A model generated the notes under the pieces. The model saw nothing but the letters and a program-made list of their open reading frames with translations. It was not told where the DNA came from and searched no databases. Below, in pieces: positions 1-34,412 of a DNA stretch of 53,665 nt. The stretch spans positions 1 through 53,665 of the forward strand of contig JAUWPM010000002.1 in NCBI GenBank assembly GCA_030611585.1, read 5' to 3'. Origin of the DNA: Methanosarcinales archaeon. GTDB taxonomy: Archaea; Halobacteriota; Syntropharchaeia; Alkanophagales; Methanospirareceae. The position numbers were made by a program, and so were the translations under genes. How positions within the stretch are numbered: position 1 is the stretch's first letter; every line of letters starts with the position of its first letter.

Positions 1-140
1 TCCATGCTCCCCATAAATTCATGTAGGGGACATACAAATAAAAAGCTTTTCGGTTTTTATTGTCTCGTTAAATCATAAAAGCAGGCTTTATATTGCAGTT
101 GGTAATTATATGTTCCCTATGATTTGACGGAGTTAAGGTT

Positions 141-164
141 AAAAAAAGAAAACCTGTGCTAAAA
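141..164 (-). repeat. partial copy (hairpin core) of the 128-bp MITE-like repeat family
   Basis: AAAAAGAAAACCTGTGCTAAAA is the reverse complement of TTTTAGCACAGGTTTTCTTTTT, which occurs in the full copies at 9911-10038 and 49201-49328. Confidence 0.5.
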
Positions 165-201
165 CTTTTTCGCAAGCAAAAACCTTTGCTAAAAAATATA
201 C

Positions 202-240
202 GTTTCTTTGGTCAAGCTTTTCTTTGTAAGAAAAGGTTTG
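202..240. repeat. A/T-rich palindromic intergenic repeat (related copy at 3698-3735)
   Basis: GTTTCTTTGGTCAAGCTTTTCTTTGTAAGAAAAGGTTTG compared with GTTTCTTTGATCAAACTTTCTTTGTGAAAGAAAGTTTG. Both contain an internal CTTT..AAAG hairpin. Confidence 0.4.
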
Positions 241-251
241 TTATGCAATTT

Positions 252-668
252 TTACTCTTCCCAGTGAAGTTCAATCTTCTCGCCCTTTGAGAAGTTTGCT
301 TCAAATAGGTCCAAACCTTTAACTCTGCCAAATATGGACGGGACATCATCCGAATCCGCTATGGCAACAAGGGTGTCAAATTCCTTTTCAACGAGTTTGA
401 TTTTCAAATCGTGAATATATGCTATCAATCTTGCACCAGGGACTACGCCCTTTATTTCAACATACTTGCCAGTTGTTATGTCATCAACAAAGAAGTTCCC
501 TAAATATCTTGGCAACACGCAAAAATCCGCCCCTGTATCAGCCAATACCTCATCTACCCAGATCCATTTATTTTTCTTTTTTGAAAAGATTTGCATCTGT
601 ATTCTTGGTCTTTTGACACCACCAAATATATCGCTTTCTTCCGGTTTATAATCGAATTCTTTTTCCAT
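252..668 (-). CDS. retropepsin-like (clan AA) aspartic protease
   Basis: 138-aa ORF with a D-T-G-A catalytic signature (VLADTGADFCVLP) and a size typical of single-domain retropepsin-like proteases. Confidence 0.7.
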   Translation of the reverse strand: MEKEFDYKPEESDIFGGVKRPRIQMQIFSKKKNKWIWVDEVLADTGADFCVLPRYLGNFFVDDITTGKYVEIKGVVPGARLIAYIHDLKIKLVEKEFDTLVAIADSDDVPSIFGRVKGLDLFEANFSKGEKIELHWEE

Positions 669-675
669 GTTCAGT

Positions 676-843
676 TTAACATATTAAAACCTTTTCATGT
701 GTCCGCCATGCCACGGAAATCTTTTTTTTAGGGTTCTTTGCCATTATTTCATCAAACATTTCCTCAGGATTCAGTCCATGCCAGACATCCTTTCCATCAA
801 TCTTTATTACATATTCAAACCTTTTTTCCATTTCCTTTTTCAT
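676..843 (-). CDS. small hypothetical protein (55 aa) immediately upstream of the protease gene
   Basis: Hand-translated ORF MKKEMEKRFEYVIKIDGKDVWHGLNPEEMFDEIMAKNPKKKISVAWRTHEKVLIC. Its stop lies 7 nt before the protease ATG. It is below the ORF-track size cutoff. Confidence 0.35.
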   Translation of the reverse strand: MKKEMEKRFEYVIKIDGKDVWHGLNPEEMFDEIMAKNPKKKISVAWRTHEKVLIC

Positions 844-919
844 TTTTCCATCACCGATTGTTCATGTAATAACTATGTCATGAGACTATAAATAAGTTCG
901 TTCGTATTTTTTATACTCA

Positions 920-1113
920 GGAATCGAAATAAAGAAGTTGCCAGAGAGACTTTTCGGGATTTTCCGTGGAAAGGATTTATTGAAGCTCTTAGAGGAAACC
1001 GAAGATGAATGGGATATTTAATCGCAGCAACATGCAAGCATTACGGGATAAAGAAAATAGCTACATTCGACCCGGATTTTAAAAGGGTTGATTTCTTGGA
1101 GATAATTACGTAA
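920..1113 (+). pseudogene. degraded vapBC-like toxin-antitoxin remnant (antitoxin C-terminus plus PIN-domain C-terminal fragment)
   Basis: One frame reads ..LPERLFGIFRGKDLLKLLEETEDEWDI*, which resembles the tail of the VapB-like protein at 43399-43710. A second frame (1009-1113) reads MGYLIAATCKHYGIKKIATFDPDFKRVDFLEIIT*, typical of the last ~35 aa of PIN/VapC proteins (..T.D.DF..). Confidence 0.4.
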
Positions 1114-13846: not shown

Positions 13847-14113
13847 GTGATATGCATGCAGATGTTGGGATTTGGAATGCCTGGAGCAGCAGAAATAACT
13901 GTAATTTTAGTTTTTATTGTTCTTCCGATTGTCGTAATAACAGTGATTCTGCTTGCCATCAGATTCATAATTAGAGCAGCGAAGGAGAAGCCCAAGGAAG
14001 ACTCAAAGCAGACGGAAATAGCGGACGAACTTAAAAAATTGGCAGAGTTGCATGATCAAGGAGTTATCACAGATGAGGAATTTAATGAGCAGAAAAAGAA
14101 ACTGCTTCGATAG
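13847..14113 (+). CDS. small membrane protein with a C-terminal SHOCT domain
   Basis: One hydrophobic TM segment followed by ELKKLAELHDQGVITDEEFNEQKKKLL, a SHOCT-type motif. Confidence 0.65.
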   Translation: MICMQMLGFGMPGAAEITVILVFIVLPIVVITVILLAIRFIIRAAKEKPKEDSKQTEIADELKKLAELHDQGVITDEEFNEQKKKLLR

Positions 14114-14150
14114 CATTTTTGCTCAGATTCGATTTTAAATCGTTATCAAA

Positions 14151-14351
14151 GTGCATGAAGGGGCGAAGAAATTGACGCGAAAATATGGTTATAAACCAAA
14201 AGCACCGTTGCTGGAAGATTTAAGAAATACCTGGCCAAACATGAGCGACGATGAAATAATAGAGGAAATGAGAAGAAACGGTTATGTACCTTTCCGTTTA
14301 TCTTTTGGATATAACTACCAAAAAATTGCCTTTAGAAGAAAGAGGACGTAA
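14151..14351 (+). CDS. hypothetical protein (66 aa)
   Basis: ORF only, GTG start, no recognised motif. Confidence 0.35.
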   Translation: MHEGAKKLTRKYGYKPKAPLLEDLRNTWPNMSDDEIIEEMRRNGYVPFRLSFGYNYQKIAFRRKRT

Positions 14352-14391
14352 GTGAGGTGGTCGAAATGTGGAAGGATAAAGGGAGTGAAAG

Positions 14392-15084
14392 ATGAATATC
14401 TCGCTGGATGATCTCATGGGGAGTGATGAAGAAGCAATGGCTGTTTGTCTGGCGATTTTGTATCTTAGATATCATCCTTCGTATCGAATTAATTTTTTTA
14501 TCCACCCTTCTACCACTCCAAGTGAGATACTCACCGTTTATTTTAGCACATCATCTCCAGAGGGATTAGAAAAGGTGAAAAATACAATGATTGCGTTTCA
14601 TCGCAGGTTTGACCAAGCTTTAGCTTTAGATTCGGGACAAATAAATCACTGGGATATAGGCGTATCCTCTGAGCCATCTGAAAGAGATAGACCTAGAAGA
14701 TTGGAGACAAGAAATGAGTGGTTAGAAGAGTTAGAGGCAAGATATTTCACAAGGTTCAAAGAGGCTTTTGAGGTATTTGTCAAAGTAGATAAAATTCCAA
14801 ATGATTATCGGATAGTCATTAAGAAATTCCTGCAGCTTGCCAACAGTAGAATAATTGGTAAGGAATTTACGAGCGCCGGGAGTGTAAAAATCCCTTATAA
14901 TCAAATATCGGTAGTGGGTGAGAGATTAAGAGGAAACGAAGCCGAGTTTATAGATATTCTTCGCGAGAGTAGAATAGCTTACAGAGGGCCTCAAAGTATA
15001 ACTGCTTCCCGGGGTGTCCTTTCCGAGTCCCCATCTAATATTATCATTCCATCTGTTGCTGCTGCCCTCCACGAGGATTTGTAG
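14392..15084 (+). CDS. hypothetical protein (230 aa)
   Basis: ORF with protein-like composition, no recognised motif. Confidence 0.5.
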   Translation: MNISLDDLMGSDEEAMAVCLAILYLRYHPSYRINFFIHPSTTPSEILTVYFSTSSPEGLEKVKNTMIAFHRRFDQALALDSGQINHWDIGVSSEPSERDRPRRLETRNEWLEELEARYFTRFKEAFEVFVKVDKIPNDYRIVIKKFLQLANSRIIGKEFTSAGSVKIPYNQISVVGERLRGNEAEFIDILRESRIAYRGPQSITASRGVLSESPSNIIIPSVAAALHEDL

Positions 15085-15110
15085 ACAAGCTGCTTTAAAC
15101 TCAAGACTTT

Positions 15111-15641
15111 TTAAAGATCCCCTCGTGTCGTCCATTCGTCCATTTGCGTTTTTCTTAATTGTTTCTCTAACTTATCTATCAGTTCGTCTCTCTTTTTTAG
15201 TTTCTTTTCCTTTTTTTCGCCTTTGAAATAATCTATGTTGTCGTCTATACTTTCGGCGTATGCTTCTTCAATTAAATCCCAGTGGGAGATCTGTCGATCT
15301 GTTAACCTCTCAAAACCAGTCTTCTTAAATTCCTTCTCTGCATCAGGGTTATATTTAAATGCCCATAATGCATCATCCTCGTCTTCTTTGCTTTCTATTT
15401 CAGGTAAGAAGCGTATTGGAAAGAGTAGCAAAGCCATCTGCTTGGCGTATGTCTCAACAAACTGCTTGTTTAAAATCGCAGCTATATCCCTTATTGTAAT
15501 CCACACGGTAGGTCTGTCACGCAGTATATTCAAAACAGCATCTAAAAAATCAAAGGCGTATTCGTCCTCTACCCAATCAAAAAAATCATCCAAATTCTCT
15601 ACTTCTGACATTTTATCACTATATAAATCGTACACCTCCAA
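15111..15641 (-). CDS. hypothetical acidic protein (176 aa)
   Basis: ORF convergent with 14392-15084, D/E-rich, no recognised motif. Confidence 0.5.
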   Translation of the reverse strand: MEVYDLYSDKMSEVENLDDFFDWVEDEYAFDFLDAVLNILRDRPTVWITIRDIAAILNKQFVETYAKQMALLLFPIRFLPEIESKEDEDDALWAFKYNPDAEKEFKKTGFERLTDRQISHWDLIEEAYAESIDDNIDYFKGEKKEKKLKKRDELIDKLEKQLRKTQMDEWTTRGDL

Positions 15642-15936
15642 GTTTTAAAAAACCACAGTAATCAACAGCTCATTTTCATCTCTTCTTTATTAGAGGGGTA
15701 AAGGACGGCAAGATGGAGAAGTGGATAGAGAGCCTGCAAGGGGAGATTGCGGAAGACTATCTCTATACGATTTCATTAATGCAAATAAAGGTTTGATGAG
15801 GGGAATATTTCTATGCCAATCTTCAAAAGTCTCTTAACCGCAAGCCACCCAAGAATCACGAAAAGATATAAAGAGCACGAAAAGAGTATTAAGAAGAAGG
15901 TGTAACATAATATAGAAAGGAGAAGGTAAGACCAAA

Positions 15937-16323
15937 ATGCAGATTGTGATAAGCGATTCAAAAACGGGTAAGGCGTATAAAGTCGAGGGTAAGGACACGG
16001 AAGCGAATGCGTTGTTCATTGGTAAACGGATAGGGGAGGTTGTGGATGCGGACATTCTCGGTCTGGGCGGATATGCACTGGAGATAACGGGCGGCTCGGA
16101 TAAGCAGGGAATGCCAATGCGAAAAGACGTTGCGGGTACCGCGCGGAAACGGATTTTAATCACGGATCCTCCGGGCTACCAGCTAAAAGAGCGTGGTAAA
16201 AGAAGAAGAAAATCCGTTCGCGGTAACGAGATCTCCACGGAACTCTCGCAGATCAACGTGGTCGTGAAGGAATACGGGAAGAAGCCGATTGGGGAGCTAT
16301 TGGTGAAAGCGGAAGAGGCGTGA
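15937..16323 (+). CDS. rps6e: 30S ribosomal protein S6e
   Basis: 128 aa, MQIVISDSKTGKAYKVE..GGSDKQGMPMR..RKRIL.., typical of archaeal S6e. Confidence 0.9.
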   Translation: MQIVISDSKTGKAYKVEGKDTEANALFIGKRIGEVVDADILGLGGYALEITGGSDKQGMPMRKDVAGTARKRILITDPPGYQLKERGKRRRKSVRGNEISTELSQINVVVKEYGKKPIGELLVKAEEA

Positions 16324-21998: not shown

Positions 21999-24710
21999 AT
22001 GAAGACCGAAGATGCCAAACTGCGGATAAAAGAACTTATTGACAAATACACTCAACTCGTTGAAGAGAAGAGACTTGGCGAATATAACGAAGAGCTGACT
22101 AAAAAAGACTTTATCCTACCGCTATTCGAGGCTTTGGGATGGAATGTTTATAACAACCCCAACAAAACCGATAGTGTGTCCGCAGAAGAAACGATATCTA
22201 AAAAACGAGTTGATTATGGGTTCAGAATCAATGGCATACCAAAATTCTTGCTTGAAGCAAAAGCAATACCAGTGGATTTAAACAAAGCGAAGTTTGCAGA
22301 GCAGGCAATAAACTATTCATGGCACAAAGGCTGCACATGGGCGGTTCTTACGGATTTTGAAGGGATAAAGGTTTTCAATGCGGAATGGAAATCAAAAACC
22401 GTGAGGGAAAATCTGTTTTTAAACATCATTTGGAGTGATTATCTTGACCGCTTTGATAAATTGTGGTGGTTATCGAAAGAAAGCTTTGAGAAGGGGCTGT
22501 TAGACAAAGAAGCCGAACTTGTCGGAAAGAAAAGCAAAAAGATTCCGGTAGATAAACAGCTTTTAGCGGATTTCACGAGATTCCGAGAGATGCTTTCCAA
22601 GGACATAACGAAATTAAATCTGGATAAAGGATTAACAGAAGAAGAACTTGATGAATCGGTGCAGAGAATCCTAGACAGGTTGATTTTCATAAGAAACTGC
22701 GAGGATAGAGAGTTAGAAGCCCGAAAGTTAATGCCCGCACTGAGAGAATGGGAAAGCGTAGGAAAAAAGGGACAATTACTGAAACAGCTCAGAGCGATTT
22801 TTAATTATTTTAACGACCAATACAACAGCAAATTATTCCAAAAGCACTTATGCGATACGTTAGACATCAGCGATAACGTGCTCAATGAAGTGGTCTATGG
22901 GCTGTACCAAACAAAAGACAAAACGGTTTATTACGATTTTTCCGCTATTGAAGCGGATGTTTTGGGTACTATTTACGAGCAGTATTTAGGGCATATCCTG
23001 AGGAAAACAGCGAAAAGAGCAAAGGTTACGGAAAGCCATGCGAGAAGAAAAGAACAGGGGATTTATTATACCCCTCCTTATATCGTTGACTATATTGTTC
23101 GGAACACCTTAGGGGAAGTATTAAAACGCAAAAGACCGGAGGAAATAGAAAAAATCAGAGTTTTGGATCCTGCTTGTGGCTCAGGCTCTTTTCTCATCAA
23201 GTCTTTTGACCTGTTGAACGAATATTGGAAAGAGAAGGACAAGGATTACGCCCAAGCACAACTGGATACAACGGGTCAAGGCACGACATTTACAAGAAAG
23301 GCAAAGATTTTGCACAATAATATCTTTGGCGTTGATCTGGATAAACAAGCGGTAGAAATTGCTCAACTAAATCTTTTATTGAAGATTGCGGAGAAAGGGC
23401 ATAGATTGCCTTTGCTACAGCAGAACATCAAATGCGGTAATTCTTTAATTGATGATGAAGGAATCGCAGGAGACAAAGCATTCTACTGGGAAGAAGAATT
23501 TAAAGAGATAATGGATGAAGGTGGATTTGATGTAGTGGTGGGCAATCCGCCTTATATCCAATTATCTATGGAACCAGCTATATCACAAGTTTGGAAAGAA
23601 TATTTCATAACCCGTTTTAAATCATCAATGGGTAGATTGAACACTTTTGGATTTTTTATAAAACTTGGAATCGATTTATTAAAAGAAAATGGACGTTTGG
23701 GCTATATAATTCCAAATACGATTCTTACACAGGAGTATTATGAACAACTACGTGAAATGATACTAAATTCTTGCAAAATCGAACACATCGTTCACTTTTC
23801 AGATTTGCCTTTCAAGGATGCAGTTGTAGAAAATGTAATAATAGTTTTGAGAAAATCAAAGTCAGCAAAAGGAAGATTATCAAATCGTATCAAAATTATT
23901 GGAGTTAATGAGCGCTTAGATTTTGTAGAACAAAAACAAATATTGCAAAGTTATTTTATCCAAAATTACAAAAAAGGCTTTAATATTTTTTTAGATGGAA
24001 ATACAATACAACTAAAGAAAAAAATAGAGCAGGATACAAAACCATTAGGCGAATTTCTTGAAGTTAATCAAGCAATAGCTTTAAAACATGATCGTGCAAA
24101 ATACTTAAGTGAGAAGAAGATAGATAGCACCTACAAGAAAGTGATTGACGGTAGACATATAAACCGTTATTCTTTGAAATGGGATGGCCATTATTTGAAG
24201 TATGATGTTAAGGCAATACATAGTTGCAAGAGAGAGGATATTTTTCTTTCGACTGAAAAGTTATTTTTCCGTCGTGTGGGAGATAAATTGATAGCCACTT
24301 TAGACAATCAGAAATTCTATGCTCTCAATACACTTGTAGTGATGAATAAAAAACAGTATATTAATTTGGGTATACAATATTTTCTTGCTCTCTTTAATTC
24401 AAAGCTTATGAATTACTATTATCAAAATTTTCTTAAGTCTACAAAGCGGGTTTTCTCAGAGATCCAAGCAAGACAAGTTAAAAATCTTCCAATCAAACAA
24501 ATTCCAGAATCCCAACAAGAAATAATAATTAAACTTGTAGATAAAATGCTTTCCTTAAACAAACGGCTAAATGAATTTGGTGACAAGAAAACAGATGAAA
24601 GAGCAAGAATAGAGGAAGAAATAAAGAAGACAGATAAAGAAATTGATGAACTCGTTTACAAGTTATATGACATAACTGAAGAGGAGAAAAAGATTATTGA
24701 GGGGTGCTAG
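21999..24710 (+). CDS. type IIG restriction-modification enzyme (Eco57I-family N6-adenine methyltransferase fused to an N-terminal PD-(D/E)xK nuclease domain)
   Basis: HsdR_N-like nuclease motif VDYGF...FLLEAK, SAM motif I VLDPACGSGSF, catalytic motif IV NPPY (23544-23555), and a TaqI-like C-terminal specificity region (LALFNSKLMNYYY). Confidence 0.85.
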   Translation: MKTEDAKLRIKELIDKYTQLVEEKRLGEYNEELTKKDFILPLFEALGWNVYNNPNKTDSVSAEETISKKRVDYGFRINGIPKFLLEAKAIPVDLNKAKFAEQAINYSWHKGCTWAVLTDFEGIKVFNAEWKSKTVRENLFLNIIWSDYLDRFDKLWWLSKESFEKGLLDKEAELVGKKSKKIPVDKQLLADFTRFREMLSKDITKLNLDKGLTEEELDESVQRILDRLIFIRNCEDRELEARKLMPALREWESVGKKGQLLKQLRAIFNYFNDQYNSKLFQKHLCDTLDISDNVLNEVVYGLYQTKDKTVYYDFSAIEADVLGTIYEQYLGHILRKTAKRAKVTESHARRKEQGIYYTPPYIVDYIVRNTLGEVLKRKRPEEIEKIRVLDPACGSGSFLIKSFDLLNEYWKEKDKDYAQAQLDTTGQGTTFTRKAKILHNNIFGVDLDKQAVEIAQLNLLLKIAEKGHRLPLLQQNIKCGNSLIDDEGIAGDKAFYWEEEFKEIMDEGGFDVVVGNPPYIQLSMEPAISQVWKEYFITRFKSSMGRLNTFGFFIKLGIDLLKENGRLGYIIPNTILTQEYYEQLREMILNSCKIEHIVHFSDLPFKDAVVENVIIVLRKSKSAKGRLSNRIKIIGVNERLDFVEQKQILQSYFIQNYKKGFNIFLDGNTIQLKKKIEQDTKPLGEFLEVNQAIALKHDRAKYLSEKKIDSTYKKVIDGRHINRYSLKWDGHYLKYDVKAIHSCKREDIFLSTEKLFFRRVGDKLIATLDNQKFYALNTLVVMNKKQYINLGIQYFLALFNSKLMNYYYQNFLKSTKRVFSEIQARQVKNLPIKQIPESQQEIIIKLVDKMLSLNKRLNEFGDKKTDERARIEEEIKKTDKEIDELVYKLYDITEEEKKIIEGC

Positions 24711-24712
24711 AA

Positions 24713-24793
24713 AGTGAAATTAATGAGTTGGTTTATGAGATTTACGGGGTTACGGGAGAGGAGATAGAAATTGTGGAGGCGGCGGATAATTGA
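24713..24793 (+). pseudogene. orphan C-terminal tail of a second Eco57I-family methyltransferase gene
   Basis: Reads ..EINELVYEIYGVTGEEIEIVEAADN*, paralogous to the genuine tail EIDELVYKLYDITEEEKKIIEGC* that ends 3 nt upstream. Confidence 0.6.
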
Positions 24794-25907
24794 AAAAATG
24801 AAGGAAAAAGGTAGAAAAGAAAAAATGGATTTGGAAAGGGAATACTTTACCTATTTTAGTGAATTTTTTGAGAATGTAAAAGAGCAATTTAGGAAATCAG
24901 TTGGTTTAAAAGAAGTTGATGAATTATCTTCAGGAGAGTTAGCTTTTAGAGATGCTATAAGCTCATTGCCATGCCCAGTTAGTATTATAAGGTTAAAAAT
25001 CGATATTACGAAGCATGAAAAGGCTAAAAATAACGTATACCATCTGATTACATACGATTTCTCTAATTTTGGAGAATCCTCAATAAAGTATTATGGCGAA
25101 GTTGACTTAGATGAAATTGAGAAATATAGAGAGTTGCTGGAAGACTTTAATATTGATAAACAAAAAATAGAATGGCTAAGAGATTTTAAAACACTCGGTT
25201 ATGGCGATCCTGATCAGTGGTATTGGGTTTGGATTATACCGTATGATATTTTAGAAAATGCTGAAGAGTACGTCAGAGATTTCTTGTATCATCCCACAAA
25301 TTCATTTTTGATGATTTTTGAAAACAAAATCCTCCAGAAATTTGAGAGAAAAATTGATTATAATTCCAAATATGGATTAAAAAATGACCCGGTACTTCCG
25401 TTATCTGAACTATTGAAAAAAGATAAAAGATTTAGCTCGTCTGTTAAAGTTGATAAATCGGGAAGGGTTCGTGAAAAAACAATAGAGGATCTGCAAAAAA
25501 GTATCTGTGGTATTCAATTAATTCCAAATGTGCCTGAAGAAGTGAAAAAAGTTTTTAATGGTGCTAAAAGACTCCGTATCTTTGGGTACTTCGAATATTA
25601 TTTTTTCACTATTTCCGAACATTATGCATATCTTGCATTGGAATCTGCTCTAAGGAACAGATACAATGAGATATACGGTAAACCCAAGAACCATATTAGC
25701 CTTTACAAAGTTATTCAAAAATTAGTGAAAAAAGGAATTATTCCAAAAGGTGAAACCAAGGCTTATGATTATGGAAGATATTTCAGAAACGTTCTTTCAC
25801 ATTTAACTGAGCCATCAATAATGCTGCCAAGTTCTGTTACACTTGAAAGAGTAGCGTATCAAATAAATCAAATATACGATAGAGGAAATGAGGAAATAAA
25901 AAATTAA
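24771..25907 (+). CDS. uncharacterised protein with a C-terminal HEPN-like (RNxxxH) domain; the true start is probably the ATG at 24798 or 24825
   Basis: The helical C-terminal ~120 aa include YFRNVLSHL (R339-x4-H344, nt 25785-25802). The N-terminal ~250 aa match no family I recognise. The stop overlaps the next ATG (TAATG). Confidence 0.6.
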   Translation: MWRRRIIEKMKEKGRKEKMDLEREYFTYFSEFFENVKEQFRKSVGLKEVDELSSGELAFRDAISSLPCPVSIIRLKIDITKHEKAKNNVYHLITYDFSNFGESSIKYYGEVDLDEIEKYRELLEDFNIDKQKIEWLRDFKTLGYGDPDQWYWVWIIPYDILENAEEYVRDFLYHPTNSFLMIFENKILQKFERKIDYNSKYGLKNDPVLPLSELLKKDKRFSSSVKVDKSGRVREKTIEDLQKSICGIQLIPNVPEEVKKVFNGAKRLRIFGYFEYYFFTISEHYAYLALESALRNRYNEIYGKPKNHISLYKVIQKLVKKGIIPKGETKAYDYGRYFRNVLSHLTEPSIMLPSSVTLERVAYQINQIYDRGNEEIKN

Positions 25908-26737
25908 TGCCGATGCTAAAAGATAAAGAGAAAATAAAGATAGCAGTTGCAGGAAAAGGGGATGTGGGTGAAGGTAGTGGAAGAGGAAGAATGAACAAAA
26001 CAATAACTCTTAAAGAACATATAATCAATTACGCAAAGAATAAACGTTATTTCAATATAAACGATTTGCGGAAGTATTTTGATGAAATAGGAATTGATTT
26101 CAAAAATGGCACACTGAAAAAATATCTCTATCTCCTGAAAAGAGAAAACGTTATCTATGGCGCAGGCAGAGGCTGGTATTCCACAATAAAACCGGTTTTT
26201 GTATTGGATACAAAGCCCGTAGAAGAAATTAGAGCTTTAATAAAAGACAAGTTCCAACTCCTTGATTTCTCTTGCTGGGGCACCGAGCAGATAAAAGGTT
26301 TCTTTCACCACTTGCCAAGCCAATTTGTCACTTTCGTTTATGCTGATAAAGATTTTCTACAAGCCCTAAAAGATTTCCTGTCAGATAACGGATACAATAC
26401 ATATCAAAATCCCCGCAAAAGTGAAGCGGAAAAATATGTGGATTTAAAAAAACGAACGGTTGTATTAAGACCTTCCATTTCTTCGCGTGAGCCTAAAAAT
26501 CAGTGTTTTGCAAAAATAGAGAAGATAATTGTGGATTTGTTTATGGAGACGAAAAAGGTCAATCTCATGGATAGGGAAGAGTGCCAGAAAATTATTTCCA
26601 ATATAATCCTTAATTACCGCATAAATATGGCTGAGATGTTCGACTACGCGGAAAGGAGAAAAATAAAAGAGAAGATGCGGAAGATGTGTACAAACCAAAA
26701 TCCACCTATGTCACATTTTTGTAAAACGTGGCAATAG
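25907..26737 (+). CDS. AbiEi-like type IV antitoxin/transcriptional regulator (N-terminal wHTH); alternative start at 25991
   Basis: N-terminal wHTH-like FNINDLRKYF..GTLKKYLYLLKRENVIYGAGRGWYS, ~250-aa size, and a position directly upstream of an AbiEii nucleotidyltransferase. Confidence 0.6.
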   Translation: MPMLKDKEKIKIAVAGKGDVGEGSGRGRMNKTITLKEHIINYAKNKRYFNINDLRKYFDEIGIDFKNGTLKKYLYLLKRENVIYGAGRGWYSTIKPVFVLDTKPVEEIRALIKDKFQLLDFSCWGTEQIKGFFHHLPSQFVTFVYADKDFLQALKDFLSDNGYNTYQNPRKSEAEKYVDLKKRTVVLRPSISSREPKNQCFAKIEKIIVDLFMETKKVNLMDREECQKIISNIILNYRINMAEMFDYAERRKIKEKMRKMCTNQNPPMSHFCKTWQ

Positions 26738-26755
26738 TAGAATACTCGGCGAAAG

Positions 26756-27817
26756 ATGATTGACAGAACATGTTTTGAAAGAAAATGGATAACGAATAAA
26801 CATAGAGAAACAAACGCAGACCCAATATTGATAGAAAAAGCAATATATGCCTTTGAATTACTTGGGAATTTGGTTGAAAACGGCACTAATCTGATTTTTA
26901 AAGGTGGCACAGGTTTGATGCTGCTCATTCCTGAGTTGAAAAGACTCTCCATTGACATCGACATAATAACGGAGGAGAAAGATATAGCATTGTATGAAAC
27001 ATTCGATAAAATAGTAAGAGGAGGGGTATTCAAGAAGTGGGAGGAGGATAAAAGACTTGCAGAGCATAAAATCCAAAAAAGTCATTTTAAATTCTACTAC
27101 TACTCTTCAATAGAAAATAGGATAGCATATATCATGCTTGATATTGTAAAAATGCCGTCTCCCTTTTCCAAAACAATCGAAAAGCCAATTATTATACCAT
27201 TGTTTGAAGTTGAAAAAGAAGTGAAAGTACCAATCCCTACAGTAAATGGATTTACCGGAGACAAGTTGAGCGCTTTTGCTCCTACGACTATAGGAATTCC
27301 CTATGGTAAAGACAAGTCAATGGAAATAATAAAACAACTATTTGACCTTGGAATTTTATTTGAATACATAACTGACCTGAAGGAAGTCAGTCAGTCGTAT
27401 AAAAGAATTGCTGAAATTGAAGCTTCTTATCGTAATATGAGTTTGCCTGCCGATGAATTTTTGCGTGATTCAATACGGGCTTCATTTCTCATCTCTCAGT
27501 TAGACTTTCGGGGGAGTATTAAGAACGATTATACAAGAGAACTAAGAAATGGAATAAGTAGGATTAGAAGTCACATAATAGGTGGTAGCTACTCTTTTTC
27601 CCGTGCTAAAGAGGATGCGTCAAAAGTTGCCTGCCTTGCTTTTTTAATTAAGGATGGTCGTTTGGATACGGATATAGAAAGACTGAAGCAAAATAGGGGA
27701 GATGTGGAGAAAATAGCGGATGTTCTTCTTCCAGGGGAATTCGTTATTCTAAATAAGCTAAAGGCGATTTCACCAGAAAGTTTTTATTTGTGGGCGATAG
27801 CTACTAAAGTAATATAG
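26756..27817 (+). CDS. AbiEii/AbiGii-family nucleotidyltransferase toxin (DUF1814)
   Basis: LIFKGGTGLMLL..LKRLSIDIDI matches the pol-beta NTase G[ST]x..DxD signature of the AbiEii family. 353 aa. Confidence 0.75.
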   Translation: MIDRTCFERKWITNKHRETNADPILIEKAIYAFELLGNLVENGTNLIFKGGTGLMLLIPELKRLSIDIDIITEEKDIALYETFDKIVRGGVFKKWEEDKRLAEHKIQKSHFKFYYYSSIENRIAYIMLDIVKMPSPFSKTIEKPIIIPLFEVEKEVKVPIPTVNGFTGDKLSAFAPTTIGIPYGKDKSMEIIKQLFDLGILFEYITDLKEVSQSYKRIAEIEASYRNMSLPADEFLRDSIRASFLISQLDFRGSIKNDYTRELRNGISRIRSHIIGGSYSFSRAKEDASKVACLAFLIKDGRLDTDIERLKQNRGDVEKIADVLLPGEFVILNKLKAISPESFYLWAIATKVI

Positions 27818-27862
27818 AAGCAGATACGAAAAGATAAAATCCCATCAGTGGACTAATAGATA

Positions 27863-28033
27863 GTGAAGGAAAATGAACAGAGAAAAATTATCTCAATCCT
27901 TGTACGATCTAACGCAAAAAAGATAGCGATTGTTGGCTCTTACGCAAGAGGTGAAGCGAAAACAGAGAGTGATATTGACATTCTTGTGAAATTTTCGGGA
28001 AGAAAGAGTTTGCTTGACCCTGTGGGAAAATAA
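27863..28033 (+). pseudogene. truncated minimal nucleotidyltransferase (MNT antitoxin of HEPN/MNT modules)
   Basis: GTG-started 56-codon ORF ..IAIVGSYARGEAKTESDIDILVKF.. (GSxxRG..DxD). It lacks the C-terminal half of MNT proteins and has no HEPN partner downstream. Confidence 0.6.
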
Positions 28034-28035
28034 CA

Positions 28036-31747: not shown

Positions 31748-32031
31748 ATTGGGAAGAGGATGATTTAGTGAAGGCGTTGAAAATCCTTGCTGGAACAACG
31801 GCTATTCCATTGAAGGTTGCTGCCGATATAGCGGGTGGCGTAGTGAGCTCTTTAGGGGATTATGTTCCGAAACCATCGAAGCTCGCTTCAAGTCTCATTG
31901 ATCTGCGAATAGGCACGCTAAAAACGATAACTAATGCAATAGAGAAAGAGGTAGCGTTGTTAGAGCAGTATAAGGAAGACCTCGAAGCAGGGGAAGAAGA
32001 AGAGAAGAAGGAGAAAGTCAAGGTGGAATAG
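31726..32031 (+). CDS. small hypothetical protein (the likely start, ATG 31744, overlaps the ArsA stop as ATGA)
   Basis: ORF coupled to the ArsA-family gene. E/K-rich tail, no recognised motif. Confidence 0.5.
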   Translation: MEEGKKMNWEEDDLVKALKILAGTTAIPLKVAADIAGGVVSSLGDYVPKPSKLASSLIDLRIGTLKTITNAIEKEVALLEQYKEDLEAGEEEEKKEKVKVE

Positions 32032-32157
32032 TGTAAATATTAGATACGATTTTTTCCGCATCCTCTGCCGGAGGATCTAAAACTATGAATATATATATTA
32101 CATTCCGTTAGTGATCGTTAAGGTATTTATATAGGTATTGTATAGTAGTATTTAATC

Positions 32158-32937
32158 ATGTTATCGTTAGAAAAGAAGATCCTATGCCTTTTGTTGAGAG
32201 AGGGAGAAGTACCGGTAGAAAGGCTAATAAAGATACTAAGGAACTTCAAAGAGTCCGAGGCGTCAGTAAGAACCGCCTTATCGAGATTAAAGAAGGAAGG
32301 ATTTGTAGAAAGTAAAAAGAGCGGTAAAAAAGCCTCTTATTCCCTTACCGACCTCGGAAAGGATGCAATCGTGTTTAAAGAATACAAGCTGCTCATGCGT
32401 GATAGGAACTGGGATGGTCAGTGGCACATCGTAACCTTTGACATACCTGAGAAATTCAGGTACAGCAGGGATGTTTTGCGAAAGATGCTTCTTTCACTTG
32501 GTTATGGAACCCTCCATTCCTCTGTTATGATCTCCCCATACGATAGAGGAGAAGAGATAAAGGAGACGGTGCGTGAATACGGAATTGAAGATTATGTGGA
32601 GTTTTTTACCGCGAAATACGAGAGTAACAAGGATATAAAGGATATAGTGCCAAAAATATGGGACTTTAAGTGGTTGGAGAGGCAGTACAATAAATTTATC
32701 TTGATTTACAAGAATGAACTGGAAGAATTAAAAAAGAAAGTGGAAGAAGGAGATGGCATAGACCCAAGTTATGCGTTCTTGAAGGGAATTGAATTGAATG
32801 AATACTTTTCACGCATTATTTCTGCGGATCCTCATCTCCCATGGGAACTCCTCCCGGATGACTGGATAGAATTTAAGGCAGAGCGAGTATGCGATGAATA
32901 TCTTCAATTTTTGGAGAGTATGGAAAAGGAAAAATGA
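32158..32937 (+). CDS. PaaX-family transcriptional regulator
   Basis: N-terminal wHTH followed by the WDGQWHIVTFDIPE..RD.LRK.L..LGYG pattern diagnostic of the PaaX family. Confidence 0.75.
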   Translation: MLSLEKKILCLLLREGEVPVERLIKILRNFKESEASVRTALSRLKKEGFVESKKSGKKASYSLTDLGKDAIVFKEYKLLMRDRNWDGQWHIVTFDIPEKFRYSRDVLRKMLLSLGYGTLHSSVMISPYDRGEEIKETVREYGIEDYVEFFTAKYESNKDIKDIVPKIWDFKWLERQYNKFILIYKNELEELKKKVEEGDGIDPSYAFLKGIELNEYFSRIISADPHLPWELLPDDWIEFKAERVCDEYLQFLESMEKEK

Positions 32938-34412
32938 GAAAAGGAGTTTTGGTAAAGCCGTATGAGAGATTGGAAAAAGCACAGATAGAGAAGATACACG
33001 AAGCATCCCTTTCTATTTTAAGGGACCCCGGGATAATATCATATAACAGGGAAGCAGCGGAAATATTCGCGGATAATGGAGCGGAGATTTCTTCCAACAA
33101 TGGCTACTGGCGAATAAGTATTCCTGAGGGGCTTATAGAGGAAAGTGTAAAGCACGCGCCTTCAGTGGTAAAATTGGGTGCGAGAGAGAAAGAGAATAGT
33201 TTAGTTCTGGATGGCAAAGAGCCAAGGGTGAGATTTGGCACTGGCTCAGAAGCGAATGTGATTCTGGATATGGATGTAGAGGATTTTGTAAGCGAGAAAT
33301 CGGGTATTGAAAGACGATTTCCTGTTTTTCAGCGAAGAAGAGGAACTGTTAAAGATCTTTGTCAGTCAGCGCATTTGTGCGAACTTTTGGAGAACGTGGA
33401 TTTCTTTCTCCGAAACGTGAATATACAGGACGATGACATCACGGATGATAACAAAGACGTGAACAAGTTCTATGCTTCGTTGAACAATACGACGAAGCAC
33501 GTGATGGCGGGATTGACGAATTTGGAAAAATTAGATGATGTAATAAGGATGGCAGAGCTTGTTTCTGGTGGTAGGAAAGAGCCGATAATATCTTTCATCG
33601 CTTGTGTAACTAAGAGTCCGCTACAATTTATCAAGGAAAGCACGCAGAACTTGATAGAAATGACAAAGCGGAATTATCCGGTGGTGATCTCAGTCTCGCC
33701 CCAGGGAGGTTCCACAGCACCCATTCAAGAGGCTGGAACGGTAGCACAACAGAATGCGGAGATTTTAGCAGGGGTTGTGCTCAGCCAGTTAGTGCGTGAG
33801 GGGGCTCCCGTATTATACGGCAGCAATCCGCTTCGCGTGAGGATGGATAACTTAGATAATATGTATGGAGCGCCGGAAACAAACCAATATTACATAGGCG
33901 GCGTTCAAATGGCTCGGTTCTACGGGATACCGTGCTATTCGGCTGCGGGCGTTGGAGATTCAAAATTCCCGGGAATAGAAGCTACGGCGGAAAAGATGAT
34001 GTCTCATCTATTTAGCTCACTCTCCGGTGCTCAATACGTGCATTACGCATTTGGATTGCTTGAAGGGACGAATACTCTCTCTTTTGAACAGCTCGTACTG
34101 GATGACCTGCATGTAGGGTTTTGTAAATCAATGTTAAGGGGACAGAGGATAGAAGAGGAGCTGCGAGATAGTTTGGAAGATATCCGAGAAGTAATGGGTA
34201 CATCTCATAAGATGTTCACGAGATATGCGAGGAAATATCTGCGTGCTGGCGAAGTTATCCCTTTCTATCCTTTTGATGGAGATGCGAATGAGACATTGAT
34301 AAAGGCAAGAGAGAGGAAGGGGGATTTGCTCGCTGCTCCGGTGGAAGAGATCCCGGGGGATATAAAGAAGGGGGTATTTCAGGAATTCGACGTGCTGGAG
34401 CGGATAAGATAA
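32934..34412 (+). CDS. MttB-superfamily (trimethylamine methyltransferase-like) substrate:corrinoid methyltransferase, non-pyrrolysine
   Basis: 492-aa uninterrupted ORF with no in-frame TAG. Paralogous to 37146-38609 (shared blocks such as FYA.LNNTTKHVM.G, P.....S.P..G.T.PI, GAP..YG). Confidence 0.8.
   Translation: MRKGVLVKPYERLEKAQIEKIHEASLSILRDPGIISYNREAAEIFADNGAEISSNNGYWRISIPEGLIEESVKHAPSVVKLGAREKENSLVLDGKEPRVRFGTGSEANVILDMDVEDFVSEKSGIERRFPVFQRRRGTVKDLCQSAHLCELLENVDFFLRNVNIQDDDITDDNKDVNKFYASLNNTTKHVMAGLTNLEKLDDVIRMAELVSGGRKEPIISFIACVTKSPLQFIKESTQNLIEMTKRNYPVVISVSPQGGSTAPIQEAGTVAQQNAEILAGVVLSQLVREGAPVLYGSNPLRVRMDNLDNMYGAPETNQYYIGGVQMARFYGIPCYSAAGVGDSKFPGIEATAEKMMSHLFSSLSGAQYVHYAFGLLEGTNTLSFEQLVLDDLHVGFCKSMLRGQRIEEELRDSLEDIREVMGTSHKMFTRYARKYLRAGEVIPFYPFDGDANETLIKARERKGDLLAAPVEEIPGDIKKGVFQEFDVLERIR

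What the first reader, a model, noticed from the sequence alone, without database searches (positions are those of the whole stretch)
24771..27817. HEPN-like protein translationally coupled to an AbiEi/AbiEii pair: candidate undescribed three-gene abortive-infection module
Seen in sequence: a 378-aa ORF ends in TAATG, sharing one base with the start of an AbiEi-like wHTH gene. That gene lies 18 nt upstream of an AbiEii (DUF1814) nucleotidyltransferase gene. All three genes are co-directional and share the same A+T-rich composition. The first protein has a helical C-terminal region containing YFRNVLSHL, an R-N-x3-H motif of the kind that forms the HEPN RNase active site. Its ~250-aa N-terminal part matches nothing I recognise. 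Established knowledge: canonical AbiE is a two-gene type IV TA/abortive-infection system, and HEPN RNases are typically partnered with pol-beta-fold nucleotidyltransferases (HEPN/MNT). Inference: this may be a hybrid in which an AbiEii NTase and an AbiEi regulator control a HEPN effector, or a new HEPN effector riding on AbiE.
Basis: partly seen in the sequence, partly recalled or inferred. Interest (0 to 1): 0.8.

Follow-up and report, generated by a model that had tools for sequence, protein, structure and literature searches.

The report
Solo HEPN gene beside AbiE cassette
The 378-aa gene does encode a conserved HEPN-type (RNase-like) protein with an unfamiliar front half. It moves on its own between defence islands and only happens to sit next to an ordinary two-gene AbiE cassette here, so the proposed three-gene system is not supported.

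Summary
The sequence features are mostly real. The ORF, the TAATG junction, the 18-nt AbiEi/AbiEii spacer and YFRNVLSHL (R339/H344) are all present.

The HEPN call holds. R-N-x2-S-H is invariant across the family. An AlphaFold model (pLDDT 89) matches almost only HEPN structures, weakly. Twelve of 34 members weakly hit Pfam DUF4145, a HEPN family.

The three-gene module does not hold. Among 101 related loci, AbiE lies beside the gene only in a 92%-identical sister lineage. There AbiEi is broken and AbiEii is replaced, yet the HEPN gene stays intact (dN/dS 0.35). Close AbiE cassettes elsewhere follow unrelated genes, and their DNA homology starts downstream of the HEPN stop. AbiEi homologues start at M29 (ATG 25991), so the TAATG "coupling" is probably an ORF-extension artefact.

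The tighter local link is upstream. In sister contigs the type IIG R-M stop codon overlaps the HEPN gene's start. Family-wide there is no fixed partner.

Best reading: an unnamed single-gene family, made of a new ~235-aa N-domain plus a DUF4145-like HEPN domain. It is probably a sensor-gated defence RNase, sitting in a composite defence island of an ANME-1 archaeon. This is a new variant of a known kind, of modest interest.

The parts
21999..24710 (+). Type IIG restriction-modification enzyme (903 aa). First gene of the low-GC island and immediate upstream neighbour of the HEPN gene.
   Evidence: Pfam Eco57I 4.6e-41, N6_Mtase, TaqI_C, HSDR_N. PADLOC REase_MTase_IIG 1.8e-120. In sister contigs L004/L110/L114 its stop overlaps the HEPN gene's GTG start as GTGA.
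24718..24792 (+). Relic of the C-terminal tail of a second Eco57I/TaqI_C-type enzyme (EINELVYEIYGVTGEEIEIVEAADN*). It lies inside an 89-nt segment (24718-24806) that is absent from sister contigs.
   Evidence: The tail motif occurs only 5 times in 833 kb across six frames, and 4 of those are directly upstream of HEPN-family genes.
24825..25511 (+). N-terminal alpha/beta domain (~229 aa from the consensus start) of the HEPN-family protein. No known relatives; proposed sensor or regulatory domain.
   Evidence: Consensus start MDLE. AF2 model of the domain has pLDDT 87 and no PDB match, with Foldseek probability <=0.05. phmmer against 1.84e9 representatives gave 92 hits, always N-terminal in 340-420-aa proteins.
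25512..25907 (+). C-terminal DUF4145-like HEPN domain, including the stop codon. R-N-V-L-S-H lies at 25785-25802 (R339/H344 in 378-aa numbering). The conserved HYAxLALES helix lies at 25620-25646.
   Evidence: R, S and H are invariant in 34 aligned members and present in ~51 of 53 distant full-length representatives. Foldseek top hits are HEPN proteins, with weak E-values. DUF4145 hits in 12/34 members. A stand-alone relative, P0348, carries PF13643.
25908..25990 (+). Probable intergenic and leader region of the AbiE cassette. It is purine-rich and open in frame, which creates the apparent TAATG-overlapping AbiEi start.
   Evidence: AbiEi homologues start at M29. Cassette homology in L105/L102/L104 starts at 25934-25967. 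L103 carries a ~97-nt insertion with a 9-bp duplication at 25907-25915, and AbiE is intact there.
25991..26737 (+). AbiEi-like wHTH antitoxin/regulator (248 aa from M29), DUF6577 type.
   Evidence: Pfam DUF6577 1.4e-42. PADLOC AbiEi 1.4e-43, with the match starting at residue 35 of the 276-aa ORF.
26756..27817 (+). AbiEii (DUF1814) nucleotidyltransferase toxin, 353 aa.
   Evidence: PF08843 1.7e-14, 54.8 bits against a cut-off of 22.5. PADLOC AbiEii PDLC02299 4.1e-105. GGT at aa 50 and DID at aa 67.
27863..28033 (+). Truncated minimal nucleotidyltransferase (MNT) gene, 56 aa, at the right edge of the island. It belongs to the flank of the AbiE cassette.
   Evidence: NTP_transf_2 1.1e-9. A full 97-aa copy follows AbiEii in L105. 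Homology in all related loci ends at 28035.

Best explanation
The gene at 24825-25907 belongs to a small, so far unnamed family. About 90 clusters at 50% identity exist, scattered over archaea and bacteria. Each member has two domains: an N-terminal ~235-aa alpha/beta domain with no recognisable relatives, and a C-terminal ~130-aa DUF4145-type HEPN domain with an invariant R-N-x2-S-H motif.

Shown here:
- The family behaves as an autonomous single-gene unit that lands in variable, defence-island-like neighbourhoods and has no fixed partner gene.
- In this ANME-1 lineage it is attached to the 3' end of a type IIG R-M gene.
- The AbiEi/AbiEii(+MNT) cassette next to it is a separate, independently mobile, canonical two-gene AbiE system.

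Inferred, by analogy with DUF4145-HEPN single-protein systems such as RAZR/PD-T7-4 and BxaP:
- The N-domain keeps the HEPN domain inactive and senses an invader-derived cue.
- Activation lets HEPN domains pair and form the composite R/H active site.
- RNA is cut, translation stops, and infection is aborted. This would act as a second line behind the neighbouring restriction enzyme.
For: HEPN domain:
- The motif is invariant in 34 aligned members and in ~51/53 distant representatives.
- The AF2 model has pLDDT 89.3. About 35 of its top Foldseek PDB hits are HEPN proteins: AF_0298 (probability 1.0, TM 0.61 normalised to the target), HepT toxins, and sacsin HEPN.
- DUF4145 hits occur in 12/34 members, best 7.4e-5.
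- Stand-alone ~160-aa relatives exist, and one is annotated PF13643.
- DUF4145 is a HEPN family known from R-M operons (PMC3710099) and from the RNases RAZR (PMC13017515) and BxaP (PMC10799925).

Autonomy:
- Across 101 loci no neighbour family recurs.
- The neighbours seen are R-M types I, IIG and III, Dsr1, QatC and PDC candidates.
- Even homologues at 75-80% identity have different neighbours.

Independence from AbiE:
- AbiE proteins were found only in L004/L110. There AbiEi carries a ~200-nt deletion and AbiEii is replaced.
- The HEPN gene in that lineage is still intact, with dN/dS 0.35.
- AbiE cassettes elsewhere follow a UvrD helicase gene or an Mrr/Zn-ribbon gene, or have only a divergently transcribed metallo-beta-lactamase-like gene upstream.
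- The cassette boundary lies at 25934-25967.

Fixed architecture: the N-domain is found only fused to this HEPN domain.

Not viral: no relatives were found in IMG/VR or in phage records.
Against: - There is no functional evidence of any kind.
- PADLOC has no model for the protein.
- Foldseek E-values are weak, 0.26-2, and the window protein scores below Pfam's DUF4145 cut-off (19.7 vs 23.1 bits).
- No trigger is known, and the N-domain's role is a guess.
- The defence-island context is qualitative. Many neighbours are unannotated or housekeeping genes.
- dN/dS of 0.35 shows only moderate constraint.
- One representative has H replaced by Y.
- The tight junction with the R-M gene in this lineage leaves room for a two-gene dependency.
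Confidence: 0.6

Rival explanations
1. R-M accessory. The HEPN protein is functionally tied to the upstream type IIG restriction-modification enzyme as a two-gene operon. It would act as a suicide or RNA-degrading back-up, or as a regulator of restriction, rather than as a self-sufficient unit.
For: - In L004/L110 and L114 the R-M stop overlaps the HEPN gene's GTG start as GTGA.
- The window keeps a relic of a second R-M C-terminus just upstream, which suggests the pairing arose or recombined more than once.
- The R-M plus HEPN pair survives in the lineage that lost AbiE.
- About one locus in ten has a type IIG, type I or type III R-M gene within two genes.
- In L095 the homologue sits inside a type I R-M operon, overlapping hsdS.
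- DUF4145 is reported in R-M operons (PMC3710099).
Against: - About 90% of loci have no R-M gene next door.
- Homologues at 75-80% identity already have unrelated neighbours.
- The R-M types and their relative positions vary, both upstream and downstream.
- The R-M gene also occurs truncated and without the HEPN gene in L112/L113.
Confidence: 0.2
2. One reading: a three-gene abortive-infection module in which AbiEi and/or the AbiEii nucleotidyltransferase control a HEPN effector, with the three genes translationally coupled.
For: - The genes are co-directional and closely spaced within one low-GC island.
- The extended AbiEi ORF with the TAATG overlap stays open in the window, in L004/L110 and in L103.
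- HEPN toxins are known to be neutralised by nucleotidyltransferases in HepT/MntA systems (PMC7641770, listed).
Against: - The adjacency is confined to one lineage at >=92% identity among 101 loci.
- In that sister lineage AbiEi is broken and AbiEii is gone, yet the HEPN gene is intact under purifying selection.
- AbiE cassettes at 82-87% identity lie behind unrelated genes, and their homology starts downstream of the HEPN stop.
- AbiEi homologues start at M29.
- L103 has a ~97-nt insertion at the very junction, with AbiE intact.
- Ten closely spaced downstream neighbours in other loci are not AbiE-like.
Confidence: 0.05
3. The protein is not a defence protein. It could be a toxin of an unrecognised toxin-antitoxin pair with a small, fast-evolving antitoxin. 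It could equally be a housekeeping or inactive HEPN-fold RNA- or nucleotide-binding protein carried passively on mobile DNA.
For: - The upstream gene is co-directional in 55 of 75 loci and is often small and unannotated.
- Many neighbours have no defence annotation.
- Some HEPN domains are non-catalytic (PMC3710099).
Against: - No upstream gene family recurs at BLAST level; the largest neighbour cluster is the R-M group, in 9 loci.
- The catalytic-type R, N, S and H residues are invariant.
- The patchy distribution across distant phyla fits a mobile conflict gene.
Confidence: 0.15

Closest known systems
DUF4145 (PF13643) branch of the HEPN superfamily (Anantharaman et al. 2013, PMC3710099)
   Same: It has a helical C-terminal domain with a conserved R-x4-H motif and weak, recurrent PF13643 hits. 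It occurs in or next to R-M operons and is fused to varied accessory domains.
   Different: The window protein scores below Pfam's gathering cut-off. The N-terminal partner domain is not among the fusions listed for DUF4145 (REase, helicase, zinc ribbon, TM, TIR, AbiJ-NTD1, DpnII-NTD).
RAZR / PD-T7-4 (PMC13017515)
   Same: It is a single polypeptide with an N-terminal accessory domain and a C-terminal DUF4145-type HEPN RNase. The catalytic R and H are required. It works by abortive infection and has no partner gene.
   Different: RAZR has a Cys4 zinc-finger N-domain and is about half the size. Here the N-domain is a ~235-aa alpha/beta fold with one conserved Cys. No trigger, assembly or activity is known for this protein.
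BxaP (BREX-associated DUF4145 protein, PMC10799925) and Ishtar (HEPN plus beta/alpha domain, bioRxiv 10.64898/2026.07.06.735840)
   Same: Both are single-gene DUF4145/HEPN defence proteins found beside methyltransferase-based systems or on their own in defence islands.
   Different: The domain order is reversed, with HEPN at the N-terminus in both. Their accessory domains are different, and no sequence similarity to either was detected here.
HepT/MntA (HEPN/MNT) type VII toxin-antitoxin systems (PMC7641770)
   Same: They share the HEPN fold and R-x4-H motif. They are among the best structural matches (7ae6, 5yep, 6m6w, 7bxo).
   Different: HepT proteins are ~130-aa single-domain toxins encoded next to a small MNT gene. 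Here the HEPN domain is fused to a large N-domain. The only MNT in the island is a truncated fragment 1.9 kb away that belongs to the AbiE cassette.
AbiE (AbiEi/AbiEii) type IV toxin-antitoxin / abortive-infection system
   Same: Genes 25991-26737 and 26756-27817 form a regular AbiEi (wHTH, DUF6577 type) plus AbiEii (DUF1814 NTase) pair.
   Different: Nothing unusual was found in the pair. The upstream HEPN gene is not part of it.

Membership tests
HEPN superfamily | Compact alpha-helical bundle fold | tested here: met
   The AF2 model has pLDDT 89.3, and residues ~247-360 are all helical. About 35 of the top Foldseek PDB hits are HEPN proteins, the best being 2hsb (probability 1.0, target TM 0.61). 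E-values are only 0.26-2.
HEPN superfamily | Conserved R-x4-6-H motif | tested here: met
   R-N-x2-S-H is invariant in 34 aligned members and present in ~51/53 distant representatives. In the window it is R339...H344.
HEPN superfamily | Metal-independent RNase activity from a dimeric composite active site | not testable with these tools
   This needs biochemistry. No oligomer modelling was done.
Pfam DUF4145 (PF13643) | Score at or above the Pfam gathering threshold (23.1 bits) | tested here: inconclusive
   The window protein scores 19.7 bits, E = 8.9e-4, below the cut-off. Twelve of 34 members hit at E <= 0.1, best 7.4e-5. A stand-alone relative, P0348 (54% identical in the domain), carries PF13643 in the precomputed annotation.
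AbiE (type IV TA / Abi) | AbiEii DUF1814 nucleotidyltransferase with G-G-[ST] and D-x-D motifs | tested here: met
   PF08843 scores 54.8 bits against a cut-off of 22.5. PADLOC AbiEii 4.1e-105. GGT at aa 50 and DID at aa 67.
AbiE (type IV TA / Abi) | AbiEi wHTH partner encoded immediately upstream, forming a two-gene operon | tested here: met
   PADLOC AbiEi 1.4e-43 and Pfam DUF6577 1.4e-42. The spacer is 18 nt. The same pair is found in L103 and L105.
Proposed three-gene HEPN-AbiEi-AbiEii module | Gene order conserved in other genomes | tested here: not met
   From the HEPN side, AbiE is found only in the 92%-identical L004/L110 lineage out of 101 loci, and it is decayed there. From the AbiE side, four cassettes have unrelated upstream genes, and hhalign probability is <=0.3%.
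Proposed three-gene HEPN-AbiEi-AbiEii module | Translational coupling of the HEPN gene and abiEi (TAATG) | tested here: not met
   AbiEi homologues are 234-254 aa and start at M29. Cassette homology begins at 25934-25967. An insertion at the junction in L103 is tolerated.
HEPN/MNT (HepT/MntA) type VII TA | Small HEPN toxin gene adjacent to a cognate MNT gene | tested here: not met
   The HEPN domain is fused to a 235-aa N-domain. The only MNT (27863-28033) is truncated, lies 1.9 kb away and travels with AbiE. An MNT gene was seen near a family member only in L095.
RAZR / PD-T7-4 | N-terminal Cys4 zinc-ribbon domain fused to DUF4145 | tested here: not met
There are no zinc-ribbon Pfam hits. PADLOC gives no hit.

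The most novel reading that the evidence does not exclude
The family is a new single-gene abortive-infection or defence RNase. Its ~235-aa N-domain would be a new kind of invader sensor that gates a DUF4145-type HEPN nuclease. It would operate in ANME-1 and other uncultured archaea and bacteria, often as a back-up to restriction-modification enzymes.
Probability: 0.4. Interest if true: 0.5.

Novelty: new variant of a known kind. Interest (0 to 1): 0.3.

Why it matters
The headline claim, a hybrid three-gene HEPN/AbiE system, would have been a new architecture for abortive infection. The evidence says it is a chance neighbourhood inside a composite defence island, so that claim should be dropped.

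What remains is useful but modest:
- It is a clean, small, unannotated protein family that adds one more accessory domain to the growing set of single-polypeptide DUF4145-HEPN immune proteins (RAZR, BxaP, Ishtar).
- It occurs in ANME-1 archaea, where almost no non-CRISPR, non-R-M defences have been characterised.
- Its high-confidence model and invariant catalytic residues make it directly testable in a heterologous host.
- The locus also illustrates cassette turnover in an archaeal defence island. The R-M tail relic, the repeated decay of AbiE and the truncated MNT all show this.

Tried and rejected
- The three-gene module was rejected after surveying 101 loci from the HEPN side and 4 contexts from the AbiE side.
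- A conserved partner gene was not found. All-against-all clustering of neighbours gave none, and the largest cluster was the R-M group in 9 loci. Pfam and PADLOC scans of 75 upstream and 114 downstream neighbours showed no family in more than 4 members. Those tables list only the top 25 families, so single divergent AbiE hits cannot be strictly excluded. This was partly covered by phmmer at E <= 1 and by a direct scan of 10 tightly linked downstream genes.
- The N-domain could not be identified. There were no Pfam, NCBIfam or PADLOC hits and no Foldseek PDB match. Only one BFVD hit appeared for the whole model (A0A482IIS2, E = 0.016, unnamed, not followed up).
- Sequence-profile searches of PDB chains, with the whole family and with the HEPN domain alone, gave nothing meaningful. 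The hits were an RNA polymerase fragment at E = 0.72 and a designed protein at E = 0.047.
- A viral origin was not supported. There were no relatives in IMG/VR or GenBank phage records. One weak HEPN-only hit was found on an Agrobacterium plasmid, to a 173-aa hypothetical protein.
- Bacterial-type promoter and terminator scans and repeat searches around the junctions were no better than chance and are of doubtful relevance in an archaeon.
- Literature searches found no described HEPN-AbiE three-gene system and no paper mentioning DUF6577.
Full report
**Observation.** The window carries a 6-kb low-GC block (21999-28035) at 31-38% GC per gene (42% in the 83-nt spacer), against ~47% in the flanks. 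It holds five co-directional ORFs:
- a 903-aa type IIG restriction-modification enzyme at 21999-24710 (Eco57I, N6_Mtase, TaqI_C; PADLOC REase_MTase_IIG 1.8e-120);
- the 378-aa ORF at 24771-25907;
- an AbiEi-like ORF at 25907-26737 (Pfam DUF6577 1.4e-42; PADLOC AbiEi 1.4e-43);
- AbiEii at 26756-27817 (PF08843 1.7e-14; PADLOC 4.1e-105);
- a 56-aa N-terminal fragment of a minimal nucleotidyltransferase at 27863-28033.

The TAATG junction, the 18-nt AbiEi/AbiEii spacer and YFRNVLSHL (R339, N340, H344) are all present. The flanking housekeeping genes place the contig in an ANME-1 archaeon. Its ArsA/GET3-family ATPase falls in a >=90%-identity cluster with proteins from ANME-1 GoMg4 and Ca. Methanospirareceae.

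**Start codons.** Two corrections matter.
- The TTG at 24771 lies inside an 89-nt segment (24718-24806) that encodes EINELVYEIYGVTGEEIEIVEAADN*. This is a relic of the C-terminal tail of another Eco57I/TaqI_C-type enzyme, and the segment is missing from sister contigs. Homologues begin at MDLE..., so ATG 24825 is the likely start, giving 360 aa.
- Of the 120 best AbiEi homologues, nearly all are 234-254 aa. They align from the window's M29, which is ATG 25991.
- At the DNA level, related AbiE cassettes become homologous to the window only from 25934 (L105), 25964 (L102) or 25967 (L104). All of these points lie downstream of the HEPN gene's stop.
- In L103 a ~97-nt insertion flanked by a 9-bp duplication (ATGCCGATG) sits exactly at the junction, yet AbiEi and AbiEii are intact.

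The one-base overlap is therefore most likely an accident of an open, purine-rich leader. The real spacer is about 83 nt.

**What the 378-aa protein is.** A search of 5.8 billion proteins found 94 clusters, none with a Pfam domain and almost all from metagenomes. Genome-resolved hits come from many lineages:
- archaea: Thermoplasmatota, Methanosarcinales, Nitrosopumilales, Halobacteria and Nanoarchaeota;
- bacteria: Sedimentisphaerales, Nitrospirota, Thermodesulfobacteriota, Zixiibacteriota, Acidobacteriota and Patescibacteria.

In an alignment of 34 members, R, S and H of R-N-x2-S-H are invariant. So is an upstream H-Y-x2-L-x2-E-S helix.

The AlphaFold model is confident (pLDDT 89.3). Its C-terminal third is an all-helical bundle. 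About 35 of the top Foldseek PDB hits are HEPN proteins, including AF_0298, HepT toxins and sacsin HEPN. The scores are weak, with E-values of 0.26-2 and target-normalised TM of 0.45-0.61.

Pfam DUF4145 is hit by the window protein just below threshold (19.7 vs 23.1 bits) and by 12 of 34 members. A profile of the C-terminal domain finds stand-alone ~160-aa relatives, some from DPANN archaea (Nanoarchaeota, Woesearchaeota), and one carries PF13643. DUF4145 is an established HEPN family, reported fused to REase and helicase modules and in operons with R-M systems (PMC3710099).

The N-terminal ~235 aa fold confidently into an alpha/beta domain (pLDDT 87) with no PDB match. An exhaustive phmmer search of 1.84 billion representatives found only 92 hits. 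These hits always occupy the N-terminus of 340-420-aa proteins. About 51 of 53 full-length hits keep R-N-x2-S-H. The two-domain architecture is thus fixed and specific.

**Is there a three-gene module?** I collected 101 loci encoding family members.
- BLASTP and phmmer with the window's AbiEi and AbiEii found them only in L004, which is the same contig as L111. The later-fetched L110 contig of the same 92%-identical variant shows the same arrangement.
- In that lineage AbiEi carries a ~200-nt deletion and is split into two 86-aa ORFs. AbiEii is replaced by two unrelated minus-strand genes.
- The R-M gene and the HEPN gene there remain intact, with dN/dS of 0.13 and 0.35. A toxin that needed AbiE for neutralisation should not survive that loss.
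- Clustering of all neighbours gave no recurrent family. The largest cluster is the R-M group, in 9 loci.
- Pfam and PADLOC scans of 75 upstream and 114 downstream neighbours showed only scattered families. These included type I, IIG and III R-M, Dsr1/SIR2, QatC, PDC candidates and many unannotated proteins.
- Ten tightly linked co-directional downstream genes are peptidases, HIT, HsdS or unknowns, not AbiE.
- From the AbiE side, cassettes 82-87% identical to the window's follow a UvrD helicase gene (L104) or an Mrr/zinc-ribbon gene (L105). In L102 the only upstream neighbour is a divergently transcribed metallo-beta-lactamase-like gene. The L104 and L105 upstream proteins showed no similarity to the family on hhalign, with probability <=0.3%.
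- AbiEii itself is internally deleted in L102 and L104.

**A better local link: the R-M gene.** In L004/L110 and in L114 the R-M stop codon overlaps a GTG start of the HEPN gene as GTGA, 12 nt before the conserved ATG. The window's relic of a second R-M tail just upstream suggests recombination between two such R-M/HEPN junctions. In a Halobacteria MAG (L095) the homologue sits inside a type I R-M operon and overlaps hsdS. Roughly one locus in ten has an R-M gene within two genes. The other ~90% do not, and homologues at 75-80% identity already have unrelated neighbours. The upstream gene is co-directional in 55 of 75 loci and the downstream gene in 28 of 63. This fits a gene that tends to be appended at the 3' end of whatever unit it lands behind.

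**Mechanism.**
- Shown: there is a conserved two-domain protein with a HEPN-type catalytic motif. It is autonomous and horizontally mobile, sits in variable island contexts and is independent of AbiE.
- Inferred by analogy with single-polypeptide DUF4145-HEPN immune proteins: the N-domain senses a cue or auto-inhibits. HEPN domains then pair to build the R/H active site, RNA is cleaved, and growth or infection is arrested. The analogues are RAZR/PD-T7-4, where R and H are essential and ssRNA is cleaved (PMC13017515), BxaP next to BREX (PMC10799925) and Ishtar.
- The AbiEi/AbiEii pair is a regular type IV TA/Abi cassette that works on its own. The MNT fragment is debris from that cassette's flank, since a full 97-aa copy follows AbiEii in L105.

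**Verdict.** The HEPN inference is right and the three-gene hybrid is not supported. What is left is an unannotated HEPN family with a new accessory domain, which is a new variant of a well-known kind, in a mosaic ANME-1 defence island. Interest is modest (0.3). The most novel reading that survives is a new sensor-gated single-gene defence RNase in archaea (probability ~0.4, interest ~0.5 if true).

Noticed in passing
window 24718-24806: An 89-nt insert between the R-M gene and the HEPN gene is absent from sister contigs. It encodes the relic tail EINELVYEIYGVTGEEIEIVEAADN* of a different Eco57I/TaqI_C-type enzyme, which hints at recombination between two R-M/HEPN junctions.
   Followed up: partly
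window 27863-28033: A minimal nucleotidyltransferase (MntA-like) gene is truncated to 56 aa exactly at the island's right edge (28035). A full 97-aa copy follows AbiEii in L105, so AbiEi-AbiEii-MNT may travel as a unit.
   Followed up: partly
L103 1-125: A ~97-nt insertion flanked by a 9-bp direct duplication (ATGCCGATG) sits exactly at the HEPN-stop/AbiEi junction. It looks like a small mobile-element footprint. No terminal inverted repeats were checked.
   Followed up: no
L004 3952-5361 (also L110 6613-8013): In the sister lineage AbiEii is replaced by two adjacent minus-strand genes (243 aa and 213-216 aa) with no Pfam hits. These may be another, unknown defence cassette occupying the same slot.
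   Followed up: partly
L102 5884-6117; L104 2452-2611: AbiEii is internally deleted in two otherwise well-conserved AbiE cassettes, with homology jumping from ~26810-26833 to ~27515-27590 of the window. This suggests frequent decay of the toxin gene.
   Followed up: no
L095 5120-13447: In a Halobacteria MAG the HEPN-family gene is embedded in a type I R-M operon. The order is an MTase-like gene, a 102-aa MNT gene plus a 121-aa ORF, a 168-aa ORF, the homologue, an overlapping hsdS and an hsdR-like gene.
   Followed up: partly
P0348, P0353, P0354, P0360; L093 4065-4553: Stand-alone ~160-aa versions of the same HEPN domain (~50% identical) exist, some of them in Nanoarchaeota and Woesearchaeota (a shorter 140-aa copy is seen in a Patescibacteria locus, L094). 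One is annotated DUF4145. The N-domain fusion therefore seems to be a derived state.
   Followed up: partly
L112 4591-7032; L113 586-3045: The same type IIG R-M gene (93% identical) occurs split by a frameshift and with its last ~100 codons replaced. The contigs end just downstream. This is either another decayed copy or an assembly break at a variable junction.
   Followed up: no
window 1-1000, 14001-16000, 32001-33000: There are further stretches at 36-39% GC in a ~45-50% GC contig. They may be additional horizontally acquired segments and were not examined.
   Followed up: no
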